From: Naegleria gruberi | Taxonomy: Eukaryota | DNA length: 64,000 nucleotides | NCBI GenBank assembly: GCA_000004985.1 | Contig: GG738921.1 | Reading direction: 5' to 3' (one strand) | Shown: positions 9,122 through 48,716 of the stretch, piece by piece | How positions within the stretch are numbered: position 1 is the first letter of the stretch | How the letters are laid out: the number at the start of each line of letters is the position of its first letter | Program-made: the position numbers and the translations under genes | The notes under the pieces: generated by a model | The model's database searches: none | The model's input: only the letters and a program-made list of their open reading frames with translations | Told to the model about the DNA's origin: nothing

Positions 9122-9866
9122 TTAAGCTGTAGTAGTGGTGTTTGAAGCAACTACTGGAGTAACAACAGTTTCAGTCTTCTTGGCCTTCTTAGATCCCTTC
9201 TTGACCTTCTTAACCTTCTTAGCACCCTTCTTAGCAGTCTTTTTTACCTTCTTAGCACCCTTCTTTGTACCCTTCTTGACCTTCTTGGCACCTTTCTTAG
9301 TGGACTTCTTAACCTTCTTAGCCTTCTTAGATCCCTTCTTGGCACCCTTCTTGACCTTCTTAACCTTCTTAGCAGTCTTCTTTGCCTTCTTAGTACCCTT
9401 CTTGGCAGATCTAACAGTCTTCTTTGCCTTCTTAGCACCCTTCTTGGTGGACTTCTTTGGTGTTTTCTTGACAGATCTTACAGTAGTCTTGGTGGACTTC
9501 TTGGCAACCTTCTTAACACCAGTTTTCTTTGGAGTCTTCTTTACAGATCTAACAGCAGTCTTCTTTGGGGAAGCCTTCTTGGTTGCCCTCTTTGTTGTTC
9601 TCTTGACAGATCTAACGGCCTTTGGCTTCTTTGGAGCAGCAACTCTAGTGGAGTTTCTTTGACTAAGAGTCTTGATAACGGTAGGTGGCTTCTTAGCTCT
9701 TGTGGTTTTAGTGGCTCTAACACCTCTAATTTTAGCCTTAGCCTCAGTCTTCCAATTGATAAGAATAAAAGCAACAATTAAAATTAGTACGTACAGCCAT
9801 AGTCATGCCGGCAACACAGGCCAACAAGGCAATCAAACACAATGTAAGGAAAAGCTTAGCACTCAT
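9122..9866 (-). CDS. Signal-peptide-bearing lysine-rich repeat protein with a histone H1 C-terminal-tail-like sequence: complement(join(9122..9748,9795..9866)), 232 aa.
   Basis: Exon 1 encodes MSAKLFLTLCLIALLACVAGMTMA, followed by a gtacgt donor and a 46-nt intron ending ttggaag. Exon 2 encodes TEAKAKIRGVRATK...KKASPKKTAVRSVKKTPKK...(KKGAKKVKKVKKGSKKAKK)n...TETVVTPVVASNTTTTA*. Exon 2 contains no Met, so exon 1 is needed for a start. The plus-strand ORF 9135-9662 is its antisense mirror. Confidence 0.6.
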
Positions 9867-10517
9867 GATTAATGTTGTTCGGTAATTTTTTTTGATGATG
9901 AAAACATACCTCAATCAAAACCGCTTTTTAAAAACTGAGGGACTGTAATCACATTACAGATGAAGTATGCACAACACACTAATACTGATACTCGCCTAAG
10001 GTTAGTGGATAACAATGGGTGGAAAAACAGGATCAGTGTTTGGTAGGTGAATGAAGTAACTTGAGTTTTGTTTTAACTTACGTTGTAATCTATGGAGAGA
10101 CTGTATGTGTAGAAACAGTTAGTAGTAAAATTGAGCAAATTGGGTAATGGAATGTTGTATCGGCGACAATGTGTTTAATTTTATTGAAATAATTGTGGAA
10201 TGTGGATTGTACATCAAAGAGAAAAGTCTTTGAAAATCATTACTGAACTTTGATAGATTCTTATATTCATAATTTTTTAATATTGACATTCACAAAAGAG
10301 AGATAAACAAAATAAAGATGAAATTCATATCTTTATTTGAAATGTTACTAAATAGTTAGTAGAGAGGTTATTAAACAAGCTTTATCTGTCAGTTTTCCTC
10401 CCAATTAATAGTTGTTTAGAGATATGAACAATTTCTCTCTTGTTAATCGAGGAAAATAAGTTTGCCCATAAAGAGCGGTGAGTTGAGCTTTGTTTATTTT
10501 CAAAAAGAAAAAAAAAC

Positions 10518-11486
10518 ATGTTCAAGATCTCATTCGTCGAGTTTTCAACACCTCAAACAATTAAATCAGCCTTATCTTGTGAGGTCAAGAATAAGAACAA
10601 CAATTCTCCAAAGAAACGAGGACGACCACCAAAGAAGAAACAACAGGAAAGAGATTCAAAAGTTGTCACATCCTCAGAATCAATGAAAGATGCTCAAAAG
10701 AATGATGTAAATCATCCTGCTGTGATCTTGACCGAATGTAAGAAGAGGAAATTGGAGAATGTTTGTGAGCAATACAGAACTCCTCCATTGGTGGTTTCTC
10801 CTCCTTCACTGCATGTTGAGGAGGATTCTAATACTCAAGCAACAACAACAACATTAGCAAGGAATAGAAAAATTATAAGAACCTCAATATCGCTTAAAGA
10901 AATATTGAATTATAATGGACAACAANNNNNNNNNNNNNNNNNNNNNNNNNNNNNNNNNNNNNNNNNNNNNNNNNNAAAGATGTACATTAACAAATTCTCT
11001 ATTGTTGACTTTACTCCTGCTCAGAATATTCAAACAAAAACTACTGATTTACCAAAGAAGAGAGGTAGACCACCTAAGAATTCACCACATGCAAACAAAT
11101 CAATGTTTATTAGGTCAACTGAGACAATGCCAATGAGGTATGAATTGACGAATAGAATGACAGACCAATTCAAGAAGGATAAACGAAGAAGAAGGGAAAA
11201 GAAAGCATGTAATAGTCCAAACACATCTAATTGCTCCACATCTAGTAGTACATCATCTTTGACTATTGTGCAAGAATTGAATAATTGTTTAGTTTCAGAC
11301 ACATTAGTTTCGTCTCTTCCAACAACGCATGCATCCACTCCTCAATCTAATATCACTACCACTAACGACAATACAACAACACATCTAGAATCCAATCTTA
11401 TCACCTCCAACAATAACAACACATCCAATTATAAACCTCCAAGAAAGATAAGATATTCGATATCCATCCAAGAATTATTAAATTGA
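10518..11486 (+). CDS. AT-hook (GRP) protein with two similar modules, one on each side of the assembly gap 10926-10975. These may be one gene or two tandem genes. Module 2 starts at ATG 10979.
   Basis: Module 1 reads MFKISFVEFSTP...SPKKRGRPPKKK...KIIRTSISLKEILN. Module 2 reads MYINKFSIVDFTP...LPKKRGRPPKNSP...KIRYSISIQELLN*. Both carry an AT-hook core RGRP. Confidence 0.55.
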   Translation: MFKISFVEFSTPQTIKSALSCEVKNKNNNSPKKRGRPPKKKQQERDSKVVTSSESMKDAQKNDVNHPAVILTECKKRKLENVCEQYRTPPLVVSPPSLHVEEDSNTQATTTTLARNRKIIRTSISLKEILNYNGQQXXXXXXXXXXXXXXXXXKMYINKFSIVDFTPAQNIQTKTTDLPKKRGRPPKNSPHANKSMFIRSTETMPMRYELTNRMTDQFKKDKRRRREKKACNSPNTSNCSTSSSTSSLTIVQELNNCLVSDTLVSSLPTTHASTPQSNITTTNDNTTTHLESNLITSNNNNTSNYKPPRKIRYSISIQELLN

Positions 11487-11840
11487 AACTATTCCAATAT
11501 TAATACTAATTAGATGTAATATTTCAAAAAGATGCGTTTTGGAAAGGTAGATGCTTTTTTACGCGATTTCCTTTCAGTAGCTATCACACATGTGTTTCGA
11601 ATCGTTTCGAATAATAGTGCAGAGGACAAATAAATCACCTCTTTCATTATCACTCACAATACAAAATACATGCATGTGTCATCTTCTTGTTGGTCCTTTT
11701 ATCAACAGAAAGTACATGAGAATCGAATAGATGAAGAGGTTTAGTTTGTGAAGGATGTGTGAAATAATTTTTTTAATAAATCAAATTCTACTAACTGTGG
11801 ATTCTTTAGCACTACTAGCACAAATTACGGAGACCAATCT

Positions 11841-13274
11841 TCAATTAGTTTCTCACCTTGCCGCCTTTCTAATTTTGTCCTTTAGCCAATTCAAGAATGT
11901 TAAAAGTTTTTCGTTGAGGGGATTCTTATCAAGGGTTCTCTCCTTAGTAATACTGTACAATACAATGCCAGCTACAAGAATAAATAAGCTCTCAATATCA
12001 AGGTTCGATAATTTTTGTTGGAAAGCAGGTCCAGCAATAAATCTTTAAAAAAATCAATTATTCGAAAGTAAACTAAATTACTTACGGAATCATAAAGAAG
12101 AGATTGGACATTACCAAACGAGAAGTTAGAGCAATCATGGCCAAAGTTGAAGATCCATGCTTGAAAACAACCAATTGAGTAACATTAAATAAAACATTGA
12201 AAACTTCAAATAAAATTGCAACCCAATAAACTCCATCACAAATGTCACCCTTCAAAGAATTCATTCCAACAACACATTTCAATGAATATAACATGTAATT
12301 AGGTAGGTCAGAAGCAGATTTCACAATACTATTTGGATTCCAAGGAATTAATAAAAATGGAATGAAAAATAAAATTCCAAATAATAATTGAAATAATTCA
12401 ATCCATGCGACCATATAGAAAACATCTAATTTCTCCTTTTTTAGATAATGTTCAATGTAAACATTGGCAATGGCTTGGAAAAATGTGGAAATTAATAGAA
12501 CGAGAGCCCAAATCCATTCTGTTGAGCTAGTTCCAGACCTTCCTGAAAGAAATAAAGGCAAAACATTTAAAATTACTCCAATGATTACAATAAAAGTTCC
12601 TCCAAATTGTAGAATATTATATCTCACCGATAAGAATATCATGGAAACGAGCATATTATTGATGATAATGGTTTGATTCATTGCCACGTTTACACTACCT
12701 GAAACATTTGATGAGGCAATGACCAATATCAAGTTTGCTAAATTCGTTAAAAATCCCATAATTACAAACTATTCCAATAATTGATTAGAAACATTCCTCC
12801 CATTTGAAAACATACTCTATAAACAGGAAATTTTCTCATTTCCTTTGTAACACTCCTAGTTCCAAACATTTTAAACCAAGCAATTGGCCAATAAACAATA
12901 TTTGACATGGTTGGAATTAAAATCGATGACAGGAAATATCCATAATGTTTCATTTGTGTTGACAATCTAACAATCAGAACAAAATTAATAGATCTAGAGA
13001 AGGCCATCACCAAAACCACCAAACACAAGGCCCCAAACACAACATACTTGTTGGTGTGAAGGAAATTCCTCACAGCACCTAAATTCCTTCGGAATGTTGA
13101 AGTTGTGTGAATTTGCATCTCACAATTATTGACATTTCCTTGAACAGAATTCTGATAACCAGGATCCTGAACCTCAACATGAAGACCTTGTTGCAGTTGT
13201 GAATTATTGTCGTTATGTAGTGATGGAACAATCAAGGGCACATGTTCATCATCTTTTCGTGCCATTTTTTTCAC
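11841..13274 (-). CDS. Multi-pass membrane transporter (about 10 TM helices). It is possibly CRT-like / nucleotide-sugar-transporter-like within the DMT superfamily. It has at least three exons at about 12762..13274, 12087..12759 and 11841..12045.
   Basis: ORFs 12762-13274 and 12082-12759 are hydrophobic throughout. A gtaagt donor lies at FFMI-CC| and an acceptor at tttttaaag|A, extending into ...PFIAGPAFQQ...LFILVAGIVLYSITKE...KIRKAAR*. The family assignment is by overall topology only. Confidence 0.4.
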
Positions 13275-13727
13275 ATCAGGAAAAATTGTCGTTTTTCTTA
13301 AGGTTCACAAGGAGTCTAGTTATGTTTTGGAAACAAGTATTGAATTTAAATTAGCCGGCTCCAGTTATGACTCATTATTTTGTTATGACTTTACGAAGAT
13401 AATTATTGGCAAAGAGAAAGATCACTCAAGAAAACAAACCATTCTATCATCAAATGAAAAGTGAGAACACTTTCAAACTGAATGAAGGAGGGCTTCTATT
13501 AATCAACTTATTTCATATAACCAACAAGAACAAAAGAGGAAATGTGTCCACTGTTTTAAAATGACTACACATGGACAAGTGTCCCCGACCTAATAATAAT
13601 TATGAACAAAATTTCTTCCTTTTCTGAAGCGATTTTCAAAGTCCATAGGCTAAAACCCAAAAGACTTCAGACCTACAGCCAATTTTAAAGATTAATTCAT
13701 ATAATATTTATGATTAAGAATGGATAG

Positions 13728-14499
13728 TGAGAGCATTTTATCACTATTCACAAATAAAAAATTAATTACACAAATTTTTTGTGAATATTTGTGGTAAAAT
13801 ATTTTCACAAATTTGTGTTTGTGTTTGTGTAGACAGGCCATTTTATCTTGCACAAATACATATTTTTATTAAAATTATTCCAACTAATGTCTATCTCAAT
13901 AGAAGGTATAAGTTGAAATCAGAAAGTAATTTCTACAATATGTTGATTCGAATGTAATGTATCCTAATTTAATTAGTGATGATGGAGTTGGTTCTGGTGG
14001 TGCGGAATCAATGAAAGCATGCTCCAAAAACAAACTGTTTTGTTCCAAATATTTAATTATTCCATCTGTTACTGCTTTCCCTCTTTATTTCACTTGAATC
14101 TTGGGTTGTTGGTGGTGTTGATGTTGGTTTCTCTGATGAAGGTTCTTCTTACATTTTTTAATATTTAATTAATAAAAAATGTATTAAACTTCTCCTTCAT
14201 CAAACGGGAGAAGAAATCAGCAACCATTAGAACCCGATTCATGTCCAATTCTTGCAACAACAATATTGATATCGGATCACATATTTCAAGATCAACGACG
14301 AATGAACTTTTACTACTAGATTCAAAGAAAACAACCTAAGATTCAAGACCAACAATAATTTATTATTTTAATAAAATACTTTTGTGTTTTCACAAATATT
14401 TGTGCAAGATAAAATGGTCTGTCTACACAAACACAAATCACAAATTTTTAAATCTGTGTAATTAATTTTTATTTGTGTTTAGAGATAAAATGCTCTCAG
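13728..14499. mobile_element. Non-autonomous TIR element (MITE-like), about 770 bp, with about 150-bp imperfect terminal inverted repeats and a non-coding core.
   Basis: The left arm 13728-13880 (gagagcattttatcactattcacaaataaaaaattaattacacaaatt...tgtgtttgtgtagacaggccattttatcttgcacaaata) is the reverse complement of 14361-14499 (...tatttgtgcaagataaaatggtctgtctacacaaacacaaatcacaaatt...taaaatgctctc). AGT flanks both ends and may be a 3-bp TSD. Confidence 0.6.
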
Positions 14500-15311
14500 T
14501 GTCCTGTTATTATGAAAGTTGCAGTTTGCCATGAAATCTATTGTAACAAATAAAGACCACTCAACAAGCAATCATTTGACACTTCTGTAATACATAAAAG
14601 AGCACAAATTATGAAAATCCTAAAATCACAGATACTATCATGTTCCTGTTAGCAATGAATTGTATAACTCAATTTGAGGACATATTTCAATCAATAATAA
14701 TATTCTCCATATTGAACTGTTTTTAGCCTTGTCATGCTAGTTGTGTTTCATATTCCTCTCCAATTTCATTAAGAACAGTTTTAGCACAGTACTATTATAT
14801 TGACACTCCCATTGTCAGATAAGGCGACAAAACCCTTTTCTGCCTTAATACTCCCTTCCCTCATTCAAGTGGGTAAATCTGAAATTTCTGCTGACTTTTG
14901 GAAGGCGGTTATTGACGCTAAGGAGCTTTGTGTGTAAACATGTAAAGTATTTTCAAATAAAGAAGTCCTCAAATGGAAATTCTGCTGGTTAAATGTGTAT
15001 TTGCGGTTTTAATGCACCCTTATTAAGGCAGTGACAGGAGGCGTATCCAATGGAGGATCACAATTAAATAATGGCACTTTAATTAAATCGTCATATTTGG
15101 CCATCCTTAACATCAGGTACGGGCAGTTAGAGGATACGAAATATTTAAATGTCTGTCCTGCGACACACATCCCCCAATGCTATTAGAGCTTGTGTGTTTG
15201 AATTGGATTAAGAGTAAGCAAAAATCTCTTCATCAACCTTCTCGTTTCACAAAATTTCACACACACACGAAGAGTTATAATTCTTCCATTTTCAATTACA
15301 GAAAAAAAAAT

Positions 15312-15851
15312 ATGTATAGCAAATTCTCAATCGTTCAATTTACAACACTCAGCTATATTCAGCCATCACATCAGGACAGCAACTGCCTGTGTATGGATGT
15401 TTCTTCTTCAAACAATTCAGCTAAAAATCCACTCTCCATTGGTCATAATCATGTTGAACTGATGCCAAAGAAGAGAGGAAGACCTATTAAGAATGAACCA
15501 AAATCCAACACCCAAATGGTAATTACCTCAACAGAAAGTTTGTTATGTCGGTCAATGAGCAATCGTCAAACAAATGTTACAAAGAGACAACACAGAGACA
15601 GTACATGTTGGGAGAGAAGAGTGAAACCAAAACCTGCAACAGTTACATCTCCTTCATCATCAATGGATATGCATACATGTATTAGCAATACTCCTTCAAT
15701 GCTCAATAGCCATACATATAATTACTCACAACCAGCAACAAGTATTCATGTTGAAAGCGAGGAGTTGCCTGCTTCTCCACATGGAACTGTGCAAATCTCC
15801 AAGAAGAGAATAATAAGAAGTTCGATATCAATTAAGGAATTGCTTAATTAA
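15312..15851 (+). CDS. AT-hook (GRP) protein, a paralog of the 10518-11486 modules (about 179 aa).
   Basis: It reads MYSKFSIVQFTTLSYIQ...MPKKRGRPIKNEPK...KKRIIRSSISIKELLN*. The N-terminal MxxKFSIVxF motif, the central KKRGRPxK and the C-terminal R(S/T)SISxKELLN match the other copies. Confidence 0.6.
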   Translation: MYSKFSIVQFTTLSYIQPSHQDSNCLCMDVSSSNNSAKNPLSIGHNHVELMPKKRGRPIKNEPKSNTQMVITSTESLLCRSMSNRQTNVTKRQHRDSTCWERRVKPKPATVTSPSSSMDMHTCISNTPSMLNSHTYNYSQPATSIHVESEELPASPHGTVQISKKRIIRSSISIKELLN

Positions 15852-16428
15852 GGTTTAGAGCTGTGTAGGATTGATAGGTCAATCCACATCATTCTCTCAA
15901 TTTACAAACCAACATTTAATTGGTCTAGTTCAGGACAAATAATCAAAAGATAGCTAGTTAAGAATTTCTGTAGATCTAATAGTTGATTCAGAATAAAGTA
16001 TTGAATAACGTTCAACATACAAACATGCATGGAAAGTGAGATTTTGAAATGATTAGTTACAGTTGTTGGTATTACAATAGTGGATGGGAGTACTTTTGTT
16101 GATAGGCAAAACTTCAAGTTGCGTTGATGATTTGTGATGGATTGTGACGAGTCAAACCCAACTTCTTATCATTCTCACAAAACTAAACACTTCATTCGAA
16201 AGTTATTTTCTCAACAATTACTTAGCATCGTGTAAGAAAATTTTACAATTTCAATAGCAGAACATTCCCTTTACCCCTTTTCGACGTTTACCAATCTACT
16301 TTTCCCTCTAAACCATTGACATTCACCAATTTCTTAACTGTCATCAAAATACACATCTCATCCATCACCTGATCAAATATTCTGCAAATTTAAAAAAATT
16401 AAAAAAAACAAATCTAATCACCATCATC

Positions 16429-17172
16429 ATGTCATCAGATCAAGTTTACGAAGATTCTTTAACCCCAGAGCAATCTAGAACTTTACGTTATTTCTCTGCT
16501 GCCAAGAGAGGACAAGTTTTGGAAATCCAAGAATTGCTTCAAGAAGATCCAAAGTTTAATACAGGAGCCTTGGATGAATTTGGAAATAATGCATTGGTGA
16601 GTTTTATGATGATGATAATGATTTAATTAACCATTATTATGTGATCTTTTTGTGGTGTATCATTTCCGATCATTGTCTCTCACTGCTGATCAATTATATT
16701 ATTCCTCTCCTATTTATTTGTTCATGATTTTACTTAATTTTGTTTTTTTTTGATTCTTCAACACCAATTAATGTTTTTTTGATCGATGTAAAATGTTTTA
16801 CAATCATGAATACTGCTTTTTCATATGAAATTGAATAATATTTTGATAATAATAATAATATTATTATGTGAGTAGCATTGGGCAGCTGGTGCTGGTCACT
16901 TGGATTGTGTTAAATTCCTTGTTGAAACTGTCAAGTTGTCAATTGATGCTATCAACAAACAAGGTGATACTCCTCTTCACAAGGCAACATGGAGAGGTGC
17001 TTTGGATGTTGTTAAATATCTTGTCGAAAAGGACGCTAAATTAGATGTTGTGAATGGTCAAAAGAAGAGACCAGTCGATTTGGCTCATCACTTGGAAGTC
17101 AAGTCCTATTTACAATCATATGAAGGAGGTGATGATGAAGACGATGAAGATGACGAAGATGAAGATGAATAA
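16429..17172 (+). CDS. Small ankyrin-repeat protein with an acidic C-terminus: join(16429..16596,16876..17172), 154 aa.
   Basis: Exon 1 ends ...DEFGNNAL|gtgagt. Exon 2 is agtag|HWAAGAGHLDCVKFLVE...GDTPLHKATWRGALDVVKYLVEKDAKLD (ANK consensus) followed by DDEDDEDDEDEDE*. The intron is about 279 nt. Confidence 0.7.
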
Positions 17173-45840: not shown

Positions 45841-48716
45841 ATGGCAAACTCCTTTTCTTTCATCTTGTTTGCCATCTTGGTTTTGAATTGGGCCTTGTTA
45901 GCCAATTGTAATTTGACTTTTTCACAACAAACATTCAACACTCTCCTCAACTCAACCCAAACTTCAACTCTATCACTGACAATGTACATGGGAGGTGGAA
46001 CAACCATCAAAAACAGTAACAACAGCACATGTGGAATGTCTGTGGATAATCCATGTACAAACTTTAATCAATTATTATTAACTTTTAATTGGACACTCTT
46101 TAGTCAATTTGAGAATTTCACAAAAGCAACATCGGCAGGTGAAAGAAACGTTCACTTGAAGATACTGATACTTCCAGATGGCAGTATTTTCTGTCCTATC
46201 AATCCAGTTAATTTATCTCCTTCAATGAATTATCATTTAGAATTTACGAAACTAGTCGAATCATCAACAATAACACCCATCTTGACCTGCCTCAACACAC
46301 AAGATGGAAATGGCATTTCCATTCCTNNNNNNNNNNNNNNNNNNNNNNNNNNNNNNNNNNNNNNNNNNNNNNNNNNNNNNNNNNNNNNNNNNNNNNNNNN
46401 NNNNNNNNNNNNNNNNNNNNNNNNNNNNNNNNNNNNNNNNNNNNNNNNNNNNNNNNNNNNNNNNNNNNNNNNNNNNNNNNNNNNNNNNNNNNNNNNNNNN
46501 NNNNNNNNNNNNNNNNNNNNNNNNNNNNNNNNNNNNNNNNNNNNNNNNNNNNNNNNNNNNNNNNNNNNNNNNNNNNNNNNNNNNNNNNNNNNNNNNNNNN
46601 NNNNNNNNNNNNNNNNNNNNNNNNNNNNNNNNNNNNNNNNNNNNNNNNNNNNNNNNNNNNNNNNNNNNNNNNNNNNNNNNNNNNNNNNNNNNNNNNNNNN
46701 NNNNNNNNNNNNNNNNNNNNNNNNNNNNNNNNNNNNNNNNNNNNNNNNNNNNNNNNNNNNNNNNNNNNNNNNNNNNNNNNNNNNNNNNNNNNNNNNNNNN
46801 NNNNNNNNNNNNNNNNNNNNNNNNNNNNNNNNNNNNNNNNNNNNNNNNNNNNNNNNNNNNNNNNNNNNNNNNNNNNNNNNNNNNNNNNNNNNNNNNNNNN
46901 NNNNNNNNNNNNNNNNNNNNNNNNNNNNNNNNNNNNNNNNNNNNNNNNNNNNNNNNNNNNNNNNNNNNNNNNNNNNNNNNNNNNNNNNNNNNNNNNNNNN
47001 NNNNNNNNNNNNNNNNNNNNNNNNNNNNNNNNNNNNNNNNNNNNNNNNNNNNNNNNNNNNNNNNNNNNNNNNNNNNNNNNNNNNNNNNNNNNNNNNNNNN
47101 NNNNNNNNNNNNNNNNNNNNNNNNNNNNNNNNNNNNNNNNNNNNNNNNNNNNNNNNNNNNNNNNNNNNNNNNNNNNNNNNNNNNNNNNNNNNNNNNNNNN
47201 NNNNNNNNNNNNNNNNNNNNNNNNNNNNNNNNNNNNNNNNNNNNNNNNNNNNNNNNNNNNNNNNNNNNNNNNNNNNNNNNNNNNNNNNNNNNNNNNNNNN
47301 NNNNNNNNNNNNNNNNNNNNNNNNNNNNNNNNNNNNNNNNNNNNNNNNNNNNNNNNNNNNNNNNNNNNNNNNNNNNNNNNNNNNNNNNNNNNNNNNNNNN
47401 NNNNNNNNNNNNNNNNNNNNNNNNNNNNNNNNNNNNNNNNNNNNNNNNNNNNNNNNNNNNNNNNNNNNNNNNNNNNNNNNNNNNNNNNNNNNNNNNNNNN
47501 NNNNNNNNNNNNNNNNNNNNTTGGAATAGCATTAGGTTTTGGAATATTCTTTGTGTGGAAAATTGTAAAGAAATTGAGAAAACTGAAAAGTAAGGAGAAG
47601 GCAGAGAAACAAATTGAAGAAAAACTTTTAGACAAGCGACTTATTTTCAATATGAATGACGAGGAGGATGAATATTATGAGGGCTCCACACCAAATATTG
47701 AAAGAAGCAAATCATCTTATGGGAAAGTATCTGAAAAGGAGTTAGTTTCTTCATTGATTGACAGTGAAAAGAAGAAATCAAAACATTCTTTCAGTTTTTC
47801 ATCCTCTTACATTATTCCAATTGAAGACATATCAATTATTAAAAAGATTGGAGAAGGAGGCGCAGCTAATGTATATTATGGTACATGGACCAATATTAAA
47901 GTGGCTATCAAGTCACTCAAGATTGACAGTTTTGATGATGATTTTGAGAATGAAGCAGCCATCCTCAGTTTAATTAGACATCCAAACATTCTGACATTCT
48001 ATGGAGTATGTTTGACTGATAAGAGTCGATATATTGTGACTGAATATATGGAAAATGGCTCTCTAGACAGGTATATATTTTTGAATAAGAACAGAGCATT
48101 GAATATTGACCTATTCAAATCAAATATTGGAATTTTGTGTGGAATTGTGGATGGTATGCAATATTTACACTCTCTTAAACCTTCAATTATTCACAGAGAT
48201 TTGAAATCGAGTAATATATTGTTGGACGAAAGAAATACTCCAAAAGTTTCTGATTTTGGTCTTGTTAAAGTATTGGGAAACAATACAATCAGTCAAATTA
48301 CAAAAGGAATTGGTACAGTGTATTATTTAGCTCCAGAAACATTCATTGCTGAACATCAAATTGAAAATAAGGAAGAGGCAACCAAGTTGGACATTTACAG
48401 TTTTGCAATAATCATGTGGGAATTATTCTTTCGAATGAGTCCTTATCATCATGTGAAAAATCCATTCAAAGTGCCTCAAATGGTTGTCAATGGAGAAAGA
48501 CCTCAAATTCCCTTCAATATTGAAAATGATACGGAAATCAAAGAATGGCTTTCAATTCAAGCATTGGAAATTTCATCGTCTGACAATTCTTTCATTAATG
48601 GTATTAAGAAATACTTCTCACTCATTCTCCAATGTTGGAATCAAAATCCATTACAAAGACCTACATTCCTGACAATTAGAAGAGAATTGGATGAGATTTA
48701 CAATCTAATCGGTTGA
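45841..48716 (+). CDS. Receptor-like protein kinase, a paralog of the 26901-30279 gene. Its ectodomain is mostly lost in the 1.2-kb assembly gap.
   Basis: Signal reads MANSFSFILFAILVLNWALLANC. After the gap, TM reads GIALGFGIFFVWKIV. Kinase motifs are IGEGGAANVYYGTWTNIKVAIKSLK, HRDLKSSNILLDE, VSDFGLVKV, GTVYYLAPE and DIYSFAIIMWELF. Confidence 0.65.
46327..47520. other. Assembly gap (run of N). There are smaller gaps at 716-755 and 10926-10975.
   Basis: Uninterrupted n characters. ORFs translated as X-runs across them are artefacts. Confidence 1.

What the first reader, a model, noticed from the sequence alone, without database searches (positions are those of the whole stretch)
10518..15851. 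Small AT-hook protein family with conserved N- and C-terminal motifs. Two tandem copies straddle a gap at 10.5-11.5 kb and one copy lies at 15.3-15.9 kb.
Three modules share M(F/Y)xxKFSIV(E/D/Q)F(S/T) at the start, a central KKRGRPPK AT-hook, S/T/N-rich low-complexity spacers, and an almost invariant C-terminus R(T/S/Y)SISxKE(I/L)LN. Conserved termini around an AT-hook suggest a defined family of small DNA-binding factors, not generic low-complexity sequence. The copies flank the transporter gene and the MITE, so there may have been a local segmental duplication.
Basis: seen in the sequence. Interest (0 to 1): 0.5.

Follow-up and report, generated by a model that had tools for sequence, protein, structure and literature searches.

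The report
Naegleria family of small AT-hook proteins
The three look-alike small proteins are real, separate genes of an undescribed eight-member family found only in the amoeboflagellate Naegleria: disordered, basic proteins with one DNA-binding AT-hook and conserved end motifs, whose tail resembles a known docking site for Tup1/Groucho gene-silencing proteins.

Summary
These motifs occur nowhere else in the 64 kb.

The window is Naegleria gruberi (Heterolobosea), not an amoebozoan. Profile searches found eight paralogs in the reference genome plus orthologs in environmental Naegleria, and nothing outside the genus. All are annotated only as "predicted protein".

Contigs from a ~96% identical relative show that modules 1 and 2 are separate genes: there is a stop directly after ILN and at least 867 nt of spacer. 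The reference model NAEGRDRAFT_75103 is therefore a chimera spliced across the gap.

The motifs are under strong purifying selection (dN/dS 0.05, against 0.47 in the linkers). The copies share almost no DNA similarity and are not each other's closest paralogs, so the duplication is old.

AlphaFold predicts disorder with a short C-terminal helix. The tail ISIK(E/D)LLN-COOH matches the Tup1-binding IxIxxLL motif of yeast MATalpha2 (IPIKDLLN). N. gruberi is reported to encode Tup and Groucho-like corepressors with no known partners.

Best guess, about 0.3: these are AT-hook tethers that recruit such a corepressor. This is untested.

The parts
10518..10910 (+). Gene m1 (131 codons to ...RTSISLKEILN). 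In this assembly the next codon, 10911-10913, is TAT, so the ORF continues as YNGQQ into the gap. It forms the 5' part of the chimeric reference model NAEGRDRAFT_75103.
   Evidence: The ortholog P0003 in a ~96% identical environmental Naegleria is 131 aa and stops (TAG) directly after ILN.
10518..10547 (+). m1 N-terminal motif MFKISFVEFS
10608..10637 (+). m1 AT-hook PKKRGRPPKK
   Evidence: (Pfam AT_hook 13.1 bits, below the 17.4 cut-off).
10659..10685 (+). m1 post-hook motif KVVTSSESM
10869..10910 (+). m1 C-terminal motif KIIRTSISLKEILN
10926..10975 (.). Scaffold gap of 50 N. In the close relative the true spacer between m1 and m2 is at least 867 nt of ordinary intergenic DNA.
   Evidence: L001 extends 521 nt past window position 10925. 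L003 extends 346 nt upstream of 10976. The two extensions do not overlap.
10980..11486 (+). Gene m2 (168 aa plus stop), with its own A-rich leader and ATG. It forms the 3' part of the chimeric model NAEGRDRAFT_75103.
   Evidence: Orthologs are P0002 (~97% nt identity) and P0004 (76% nt identity).
10980..11015 (+). m2 N-terminal motif MYINKFSIVDFT
11052..11081 (+). m2 AT-hook PKKRGRPPKN
11103..11129 (+). m2 post-hook motif MFIRSTETM
11442..11483 (+). m2 C-terminal motif RKIRYSISIQELLN-COOH. AlphaFold predicts a helix at residues 163-167.
15312..15851 (+). Gene m3 (179 aa plus stop), equal to NAEGRDRAFT_75105 / XP_002669870.1. The family alignment supports the ATG at 15312, not the upstream in-frame ATG at 15177.
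15312..15344 (+). m3 N-terminal motif MYSKFSIVQFT
15465..15494 (+). m3 AT-hook PKKRGRPIKN
15516..15542 (+). m3 post-hook motif MVITSTESL
15807..15848 (+). m3 C-terminal motif RIIRSSISIKELLN-COOH. AlphaFold predicts a helix at residues 174-178, the region of highest pLDDT (about 84).

Best explanation
SHOWN. The three modules are three separate, intronless, protein-coding genes. They belong to a Naegleria-restricted family with eight paralogs in the N. gruberi reference genome. The products are small (131-254 aa), basic, S/T/N-rich proteins predicted to be intrinsically disordered. Only four or five short linear motifs are conserved, always in the same order: an N-terminal K-F-S-I-V-x-F, one canonical AT-hook PKKRGRPxK, M-x-I-x-S-T-E, a lone Cys, and the extreme C-terminus R-x-S-I-S-I-x-[ED]-L-L-N-COOH.

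INFERRED MECHANISM. The AT-hook inserts into the minor groove of AT-rich DNA (the window is about 33% G+C) and anchors the protein on chromatin. The terminal motifs are docking peptides for a partner. The C-terminal I-S-I-K-[ED]-L-L-N folds into a short amphipathic helix on binding. It is of the same type as the Tup1-WD40-binding N-terminus of yeast MATalpha2 (IPIKDLLN, IxIxxLL), that is, an eh1-like motif lacking the initial Phe. The N-terminal FSIVxF matches the first half of the eh1 consensus (F-S-[VI]). On this reading the proteins act as minimal DNA-tethered adaptors. They would bring the Tup and/or Groucho-like WD40 corepressor of Naegleria to AT-rich regions and repress transcription. 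The paralogs would differ in expression or in their linker-encoded regulation.
For: Real genes and a real family:
- A profile of the three modules against 1.84 billion representatives recovers P0002-P0005, P0007 and P0009 with all motifs, at E from 5e-56 to 1e-5.
- A profile iteration adds P0014-P0017 and then converges.
- The named members are all N. gruberi 'predicted protein'; the unnamed ones come from two environmental samples.
- For m2 against its ortholog P0004, dN/dS is 0.047 in the motifs (dS 0.69) and 0.47 in the linkers.
- Against the ~96% identical relative, all indels are in frame and all replacements lie outside the motifs.

Separate genes:
- In the relative there is a stop after ILN and at least 867 nt of spacer.

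Disorder and C-terminal helix:
- Two AlphaFold2 runs gave mean pLDDT 53.6 and 54.6.
- The only helix of four or more residues in either model covers KELLN (m3) and IQELL (m2), where pLDDT is 74-84.

Hook:
- The RGRP core with basic flanks is present in 13 of 13 sequences.
- The only PDB hit is the AT-hook of GLYR1.

Corepressor link:
- IxIxxLL is present at the C-terminus of 11 of 13 sequences.
- The MATalpha2 N-terminus is MNKIPIKDLLNPQ (PMC2817886). Its residues I4, L9 and L10 are needed for binding the Tup1 WD40 domain (PMC4943189).
- alpha2 binds the Tup1 WD40 repeats (PMC10163088).
- The same paper (PMC4943189) reports that N. gruberi encodes both a Tup and a Groucho-like protein. It found no eh1 or WRPW partner among proteins with recognised transcription-factor domains. 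This family would have escaped that screen, because its lone hook scores below the Pfam threshold.
- eh1 motifs are known to lie on either or both sides of a DNA-binding domain (PMC1310626).
Against: - No binding, localisation or expression data exist for any member.
- The strict metazoan eh1 consensus FS[VI]xx[IL][LM] is met by no member. The N-terminal motif has F-T/S where I/L-L/M is expected, and the C-terminal motif lacks the aromatic first residue.
- m1 has ISLKEIL, not IxIxxLL.
- The resemblance to MATalpha2 is a post hoc comparison of an 8-mer.
- The same MATalpha2 segment is also listed as an atypical NLS.
- A single AT-hook binds DNA only weakly on its own (general knowledge of HMGA and AT-hook proteins).
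- The strictly C-terminal position in 12 of 13 sequences is not a requirement of eh1-type motifs and may point to a different receptor.
Confidence: 0.3

Rival explanations
1. HMGA-like architectural chromatin proteins. The anatomy is the same (an AT-hook on AT-rich DNA). The terminal motifs bind something other than a Tup/Groucho corepressor. Candidates are each other (self-association that makes a one-hook protein multivalent), SUMO (the N-terminal S-I-V-[DE]-F-T loosely resembles I-V-D-L-T type SUMO-interaction motifs, from memory), or an unknown Naegleria-specific partner.
For: The proteins are small, basic and disordered with a canonical hook. Three conserved hydrophobic blocks (KFSIVEF, MFIxSTE, IIRTSISI) have strand-like alternation. 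The strict eh1 consensus is not met.
Against: HMGA proteins have three hooks and an acidic tail; these have one hook and a hydrophobic or basic tail. AlphaFold gives no strand pairing or intramolecular contact between the blocks and predicts no strand at all. The tail is predicted helical, not strand.
Confidence: 0.28
2. The terminal motifs are sorting or turnover signals rather than partner-recruitment sites, for example an atypical NLS or a terminal degron. The MATalpha2 N-terminus has been used as a model for both. On this reading the proteins are short-lived nuclear regulators.
For: MNKIPIKDLLNPQ is listed as an atypical NLS (PMC2817886). The same peptide is quoted in a review of protein termini and stability (PMC6460961; not read further). 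The motifs sit at or within 12 residues of the N-terminus, and exactly at the C-terminus in 12 of 13 sequences.
Against: The proteins already carry classical basic clusters (KKRGRP; KKDKRRRREKK in m2). They are small enough to enter nuclei passively. Two different conserved terminal signals plus an internal motif are more than import or turnover alone would need.
Confidence: 0.1
3. Modules 1 and 2 are one two-hook protein, as in the reference annotation NAEGRDRAFT_75103 (252 aa).
For: The reference model P0013 joins m1 residues 1-99 to m2 from NIQTK onward. In this assembly m1 lacks a stop before the gap.
Against: In the ~96% identical relative, m1 ends with TAG after ILN. At least 867 nt of non-coding spacer follows. 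m2 has its own A-rich leader and ATG. The model's 'intron' removes the C-terminal motif of m1 and the N-terminal motif of m2, both of which are conserved family-wide. The in-frame reading across 50 N is arbitrary.
Confidence: 0.03
4. These are chance ORFs, pseudogenes or low-complexity artefacts.
For: No Pfam domain passes threshold. The spacers are low-complexity. No expression evidence was found.
Against: ORFs of 131-179 codons in ~33% G+C DNA are unlikely by chance. There are eight paralogs plus orthologs with ordered motifs. Motif dN/dS is 0.047 with dS 0.69. Only in-frame indels are seen.
Confidence: 0.02

Closest known systems
HMGA (HMG-I/Y) proteins and other small AT-hook proteins
   Same: Small, basic, intrinsically disordered nuclear-type proteins whose only recognisable DNA-binding element is the R-G-R-P AT-hook flanked by K/R.
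   Different: There is one hook instead of three and no acidic C-terminal tail. Unique conserved N- and C-terminal hydrophobic motifs and an M-x-I-x-S-T-E block are present. No sequence homology exists outside the hook. The family is confined to Naegleria.
Yeast MATalpha2 N-terminal Tup1-interaction motif (MNKIPIKDLLN; IxIxxLL)
   Same: The tail ISIK[ED]LLN is identical to MATalpha2 residues 4-11 at 6 of 8 positions, or 7 of 8 in NAEGRDRAFT_75558 and 76411. This includes all residues whose mutation abolishes Tup1 binding (I4, L9, L10). Both motifs sit at a protein terminus in an unstructured region beside a DNA-binding element.
   Different: The motif lies at the C-terminus, not the N-terminus. 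The DNA-binding element is an AT-hook, not a homeodomain. There is no homology beyond the motif, so any relation is convergent. Binding is untested.
Metazoan eh1 (Engrailed homology 1) Groucho/TLE-binding motif, FS[VI]xx[IL][LM]
   Same: The N-terminal K-F-S-I-V-x-F begins F-S-[IV]. The C-terminal motif has the S-[IV]-x-x-[IL]-L core and is predicted to form a short helix. As in some eh1 proteins (Uncx4.1), motifs lie on both sides of the DNA-binding element.
   Different: Neither motif satisfies the full consensus. Groucho-type pockets are described as needing the initial Phe.
C-terminal WRPW of Hairy/HES repressors
   Same: A corepressor-docking peptide placed at the extreme C-terminus of a small DNA-binding protein (general knowledge).
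   Different: There is no sequence resemblance; no W-R-P-W is present.

Membership tests
AT-hook (Pfam PF02178 / Aravind-Landsman definition) | R-G-R-P core | tested here: met
   RGRP is invariant in all 13 aligned sequences. There are exactly three occurrences in the 64-kb six-frame translation, all in these ORFs.
AT-hook (Pfam PF02178 / Aravind-Landsman definition) | Basic residues flanking the core on both sides | tested here: met
   The pattern is P-[KR]-[KR]-RGRP-x-[KT], as in the hooks of unrelated database hits (P0008, P0011, P0012) and of GLYR1 in the PDB.
AT-hook (Pfam PF02178 / Aravind-Landsman definition) | Score above the Pfam gathering threshold (17.4 bits) | tested here: not met
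   Scores were 13.1 bits (m1), 9.7 bits (m2) and no hit (m3). A single 13-residue motif rarely reaches the cut-off, which is designed for proteins with several hooks.
AT-hook (Pfam PF02178 / Aravind-Landsman definition) | Minor-groove binding to AT-rich DNA | not testable with these tools
   This needs EMSA, footprinting or DAP-seq.
HMGA | Three AT-hooks | tested here: not met
   There is one hook per protein in every member.
HMGA | Acidic C-terminal tail | tested here: not met
   The tail is R-I-I-R-T-S-I-S-I-K-E-L-L-N, and the proteins are net basic.
HMGA | Small, intrinsically disordered | tested here: met
   Length is 131-254 aa. AlphaFold2 mean pLDDT is 53.6 and 54.6, with no tertiary structure.
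eh1 motif (metazoan Groucho/TLE ligand) | Consensus FS[VI]xx[IL][LM], as quoted in PMC4943189 | tested here: not met
   The regex finds no match in any of the 13 sequences. The N-terminal motif is FS[IV]xxF[TSAK]. The C-terminal motif is IS[IL]xx[LI]L.
eh1 motif (metazoan Groucho/TLE ligand) | Short amphipathic helix in an otherwise disordered region, outside domains, beside a DNA-binding element | tested here: met
   AlphaFold2 predicts helices at 174-178 (m3) and 163-167 (m2) in otherwise disordered chains. This is a prediction only.
eh1 motif (metazoan Groucho/TLE ligand) | Binds the central pore of a Groucho/TLE WD40 propeller | not testable with these tools
   No multimer prediction was possible and no N. 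gruberi proteome was at hand. The presence of a Groucho-like gene in N. gruberi rests on PMC4943189.
MATalpha2-type Tup1-interaction motif | I-x-I-x-x-L-L spacing of hydrophobic residues | tested here: met
   It is present at the extreme C-terminus in 11 of 13 sequences. m1 and its ortholog have ISLKEIL.
MATalpha2-type Tup1-interaction motif | A Tup1 ortholog is present in the same organism | not tested
   PMC4943189 reports a Tup_N-containing Tup in N. gruberi. This was not re-verified here.
MATalpha2-type Tup1-interaction motif | Mutation-sensitive binding to the Tup1 WD40 domain, and repression | not testable with these tools
   This requires experiment.

The most novel reading that the evidence does not exclude
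These eight proteins are the missing DNA-tethering partners of the Naegleria Tup and/or Groucho-like corepressors. They would be minimal repressors consisting of a single AT-hook plus eh1/MATalpha2-type docking peptides at both ends. That would put peptide-mediated recruitment of WD40 corepressors outside the opisthokonts, in a discoban, either by convergence or as an ancestral eukaryotic mechanism. It would also show that an AT-hook alone can serve as the targeting module.
Probability: 0.25. Interest if true: 0.65.

Novelty: new variant of a known kind. Interest (0 to 1): 0.38.

Why it matters
Transcription regulation in Naegleria is almost unexplored, and this genus-restricted eight-gene family has no name, no Pfam model and no mention in the searched literature.

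If the tail really is a Tup/Groucho docking site, it gives a concrete, testable set of candidates. Copley (2016) raised the question of what the Groucho-like and Tup proteins of a non-opisthokont bind, and whether eh1-type recruitment is older than animals and fungi.

There is also a practical result. The work corrects a chimeric reference gene model (NAEGRDRAFT_75103). It shows that screens for corepressor motifs that require a recognised DNA-binding domain miss single-AT-hook proteins.

If the corepressor link is wrong, this is an ordinary lineage-specific family of disordered AT-hook proteins.

Tried and rejected
- Pfam scan of the three modules gave only sub-threshold AT_hook hits.
- A single-sequence search with m3 found only itself.
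- Exact-protein contig look-ups for the N. gruberi reference proteins P0001 and P0007 found nothing on record, so the other reference scaffolds could not be read.
- A scan of JGI metagenome contigs with the family profile matched the tail pattern in 83 stretches, about what I estimate by chance. None was confirmed.
- A viral contig scan gave 600 pattern matches, none confirmed, so there is no sign of viral origin.
- A PDB profile search hit only the AT-hook of GLYR1.
- Literature searches by locus tags, accessions and sample ids returned nothing.
- A search for a shared upstream DNA motif among six family genes found nothing beyond an A-run before the ATG. An A-run also precedes the ATG of the two neighbouring genes I looked at.
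- The idea that the three hydrophobic blocks form a small beta-sheet domain is not supported by two AlphaFold runs.
- I did not run fold search, because models of this confidence give meaningless matches.
- Recent segmental duplication is rejected on DNA dissimilarity and on paralog nearest-neighbour scores.
- An NES reading of the tail is rejected, because from memory of the NES classes the hydrophobic spacing does not fit.
- The R-[TSY]-S-I stretch in the tail fits a basophilic or Aurora-type kinase consensus (from memory). I note this only as a possible regulatory site.

Full report
OBSERVATION

Reading 10000-16500 and listing ORFs shows three + strand reading frames.
- m1: 10518-10910, then running into the 50-N gap at 10926-10975.
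- m2: 10980-11486.
- m3: 15312-15851.

Aligned, they share M1, K, S, V, F at the N-terminus, P-K-K-R-G-R-P-x-K, and R-x-S-I-S-x-x-E-x-L-N at the end. In between is 27-39% S+T+N spacer.

A six-frame regex scan of the whole 64 kb finds the hook core, the tail and the N-terminal pattern three times each. They occur only in these ORFs and always in the same order.

Small corrections are needed.
- m1 begins MFKISFVEFS.
- The m3 hook is KKRGRPIK.
- m1 does not terminate at LN in this assembly.

ORGANISM

m3 is 100% identical to a 'predicted protein' of Naegleria gruberi, NAEGRDRAFT_75105 / XP_002669870.1, on a 207-kb scaffold.

IS IT A FAMILY?

A profile of the three modules was searched without a word index against 1.84 billion representative proteins. 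It returned 12 hits at E <= 1e-3.
- Seven have the full ordered architecture: P0001-P0005, P0007 and P0009.
- The other five are generic multi-hook proteins that match only the hook.

A profile of the family searched against 5.8 billion proteins added P0014-P0017. A further iteration found nothing new.

Cluster look-ups put the reference-genome members at eight.
- m1 and m2, both inside model NAEGRDRAFT_75103.
- m3, equal to NAEGRDRAFT_75105.
- NAEGRDRAFT_82132, 75558 and 76411, all three on one 175-kb scaffold.
- NAEGRDRAFT_61743.
- NAEGRDRAFT_73527.

P0002, P0003, P0005 and P0009 come from one metagenome (ERR1078381). There, the contigs carrying the m1 and m2 orthologs are 96-97% identical to the window. 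P0004 comes from another run (SRR25266754) and is an m2 ortholog at 76% nucleotide identity.

Nothing was found outside Naegleria, neither in viral contigs nor in JGI metagenomes. All named members are annotated only as predicted, hypothetical or uncharacterized protein. No paper in the library mentions the three locus tags and accessions searched.

ARE THEY FUNCTIONAL GENES?

m2 was compared with its ortholog P0004 using Nei-Gojobori estimates.
- Overall: dN/dS = 0.34.
- In the four motif blocks: 0.047 (dS 0.69, dN 0.03).
- In the linkers: 0.47.

The blocks were chosen because they are conserved, so the low dN is partly circular. The high dS within them, however, shows that it is the peptide and not the DNA that is kept.

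Against the ~96% identical relative, all three indels are in frame (3, 3 and 9 nt). All 13 amino-acid replacements lie outside the motifs, and the changes inside motifs are synonymous.

THE GAP, AND WHETHER m1 AND m2 ARE ONE PROTEIN

The reference model NAEGRDRAFT_75103 (P0013, 252 aa) joins m1 residues 1-99 to m2 from NIQTK onward. This is done through an 'intron' that spans the gap and deletes the tail of m1 and the head of m2.

In the close relative the picture is different.
- m1 ends ...ATATTGAAT TAG (131 aa).
- The m1 contig continues for 521 nt of non-coding sequence beyond window position 10925.
- The m2 contig brings 346 nt of upstream sequence ending in an A-run before the ATG.
- These two extensions do not overlap.

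The true spacer is therefore at least 867 nt, and m1 and m2 are two genes. The reference model is a chimera.

In the window the codon after ILN is TAT, not TAG. This may be a real stop loss, adding roughly 13 residues if the downstream sequence resembles the relative's. It may equally be a base error at a contig end. I cannot tell which.

DUPLICATION HISTORY

The three CDS and their 400-nt flanks share no DNA similarity except 20 nt at the hook of m2 and m3.

In all-against-all BLASTP, the best in-genome paralog of m3 is 76411, on another scaffold. The best paralogs of m1 are 76411 and 82132.

The cluster is thus not a recent segmental duplication. An ancient tandem origin is possible.

One detail is worth noting. 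75558 and 76411 are two accession numbers apart on their scaffold, and in UniProt numbering 75103 and 75105 are likewise separated by one entry. The intervening gene could not be examined.

- A CRT-like transporter (PF08627, E 1.4e-33) lies on the - strand at 12082-13274.
- A roughly 780-bp element with long imperfect terminal inverted repeats lies at 13722-14504.

STRUCTURE

AlphaFold2 was run with the family alignment on m3 and on m2.
- Mean pLDDT was 53.6 (m3) and 54.6 (m2), and pTM was about 0.17.
- No strand and no tertiary contacts were predicted.
- The only helix of four or more residues covers KELLN in m3 (174-178) and IQELL in m2 (163-167).
- That tail has the highest confidence, 74-84.
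- The hook-to-STE region scores about 63-70.

These are intrinsically disordered proteins carrying short linear motifs, not a folded domain.

MECHANISM (INFERENCE)

The hook is canonical: an RGRP core, basic flanks and a preceding Pro. It is the only part with database relatives, namely other AT-hook proteins and GLYR1 in the PDB. Anchoring on AT-rich DNA is therefore the natural reading, although a single hook binds weakly.

The tail I-S-I-K-[ED]-L-L-N resembles the N-terminus of yeast MATalpha2, MNKIPIKDLLNPQ (PMC2817886).
- In MATalpha2, I4, L9 and L10 (IxIxxLL) are required for binding the WD40 domain of Tup1.
- That segment has been read as an eh1 motif lacking the initial Phe (PMC4943189; PMC10163088).
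- IxIxxLL is present at the C-terminus of 11 of 13 family sequences.
- Identity to MATalpha2 residues 4-11 is 6 of 8, or 7 of 8 in 75558 and 76411.

The N-terminal motif starts F-S-[IV], like eh1. The full metazoan consensus FS[VI]xx[IL][LM] is met by no member.

Copley (PMC4943189) makes three relevant points.
- N. gruberi encodes both a Tup and a Groucho-like WD40 protein.
- No eh1 or WRPW partner could be found among Naegleria proteins with recognised transcription-factor domains.
- Tup-type pockets may accept eh1-like motifs without the Phe.

This family would have been invisible to that screen, because its hook scores below the Pfam threshold. eh1 motifs are also known to lie on either or both sides of a DNA-binding element (PMC1310626).

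I therefore propose that these proteins are minimal AT-hook tethers recruiting a Tup/Groucho-type corepressor. I rate this at about 0.3, for three reasons.
- The comparison is a post hoc match of a short, hydrophobic motif.
- The strict eh1 test fails.
- Nothing could be tested physically.

Near-equal alternatives are listed as rivals.
- HMGA-like architectural proteins whose ends bind another partner or each other.
- Ends that act as import or turnover signals, since the same MATalpha2 peptide is listed as an atypical NLS.

VERDICT

This is a real, previously undescribed, Naegleria-restricted family of small disordered single-AT-hook proteins. It is a new variant within a known kind. Two practical corrections follow: the organism, and the chimeric gene model. 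There is one testable functional lead. Interest is moderate.

Noticed in passing
window 10911-10913: The codon after the m1 tail ...ILN is TAT here but TAG (stop) in the ~96% identical environmental relative. Twelve of the 13 aligned family sequences end exactly at LN; the window's m1 is the exception. This is either a real stop loss in the reference strain or a base error at the contig end next to the gap.
   Followed up: partly
window 10518-11486 (reference model NAEGRDRAFT_75103 / XP_002669869.1): The public gene model is a chimera. It joins m1 residues 1-99 to m2 from residue 17, through an 'intron' spanning the 50-N gap.
   Followed up: yes
window ~9145-9720, - strand: A long lysine-rich reading frame (…KKAKKTAKKVKKVKKGAKKGSKKAKK…) has no in-frame Met, so it is probably a downstream exon. 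It overlaps 9-42-nt tandem repeats at 9172-9445. Its composition resembles a histone-H1 tail, and it lies about 0.8 kb upstream of m1, on the opposite strand.
   Followed up: no
window 13722-14504: A MITE-like element of about 780 bp with long imperfect terminal inverted repeats (arms 13722-13858 and 14397-14504, 86-95% complementary). Its 18-nt terminal word occurs only at these two places in the window.
   Followed up: partly
window 12082-13274, - strand: A CRT-like (chloroquine-resistance-transporter-like, PF08627) membrane transporter gene lies between m2 and m3. It appears as two adjacent ORFs (12082-12759 and 12762-13274) that both match PF08627.
   Followed up: partly
P0015 (NAEGRDRAFT_73527) versus P0005 (locus L005 150-581): The reference paralog reads MRQQTENSKKKYSKFSIIEF where the environmental ortholog starts MYSKFSIVEF. 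The usual start Met is a Lys in the reference, and an upstream ATG adds 11 residues. The N-terminal motif therefore need not be at the very N-terminus. P0016 (75558) appears to lack the N-terminal motif altogether, or else has a mis-called start.
   Followed up: no
N. gruberi 174,974-bp scaffold (not in window): EFC36698, EFC36700, EFC36737: Three further family members sit on one other scaffold, two of them two accession numbers apart. This mirrors the copy / one gene / copy layout seen here. Whether the intervening gene is also a CRT-like transporter, which would indicate an old block duplication, could not be checked. P0017 also exists as a second identical entry (EFC35928) on another contig.
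   Followed up: no
window 46327-47520 and 706-755: Further scaffold gaps: 1194 N and 50 N. The 46-48 kb bin therefore shows an artefactually low G+C of 0.135.
   Followed up: no
family tail, e.g. window 15807-15848: The invariant R-x-S-I within the tail (R-[TSY]-S-I-S) fits a basophilic or Aurora-type kinase consensus ([RK]-x-[ST]-[ILV], from memory). Phosphorylation next to the putative docking helix could regulate it.
   Followed up: no
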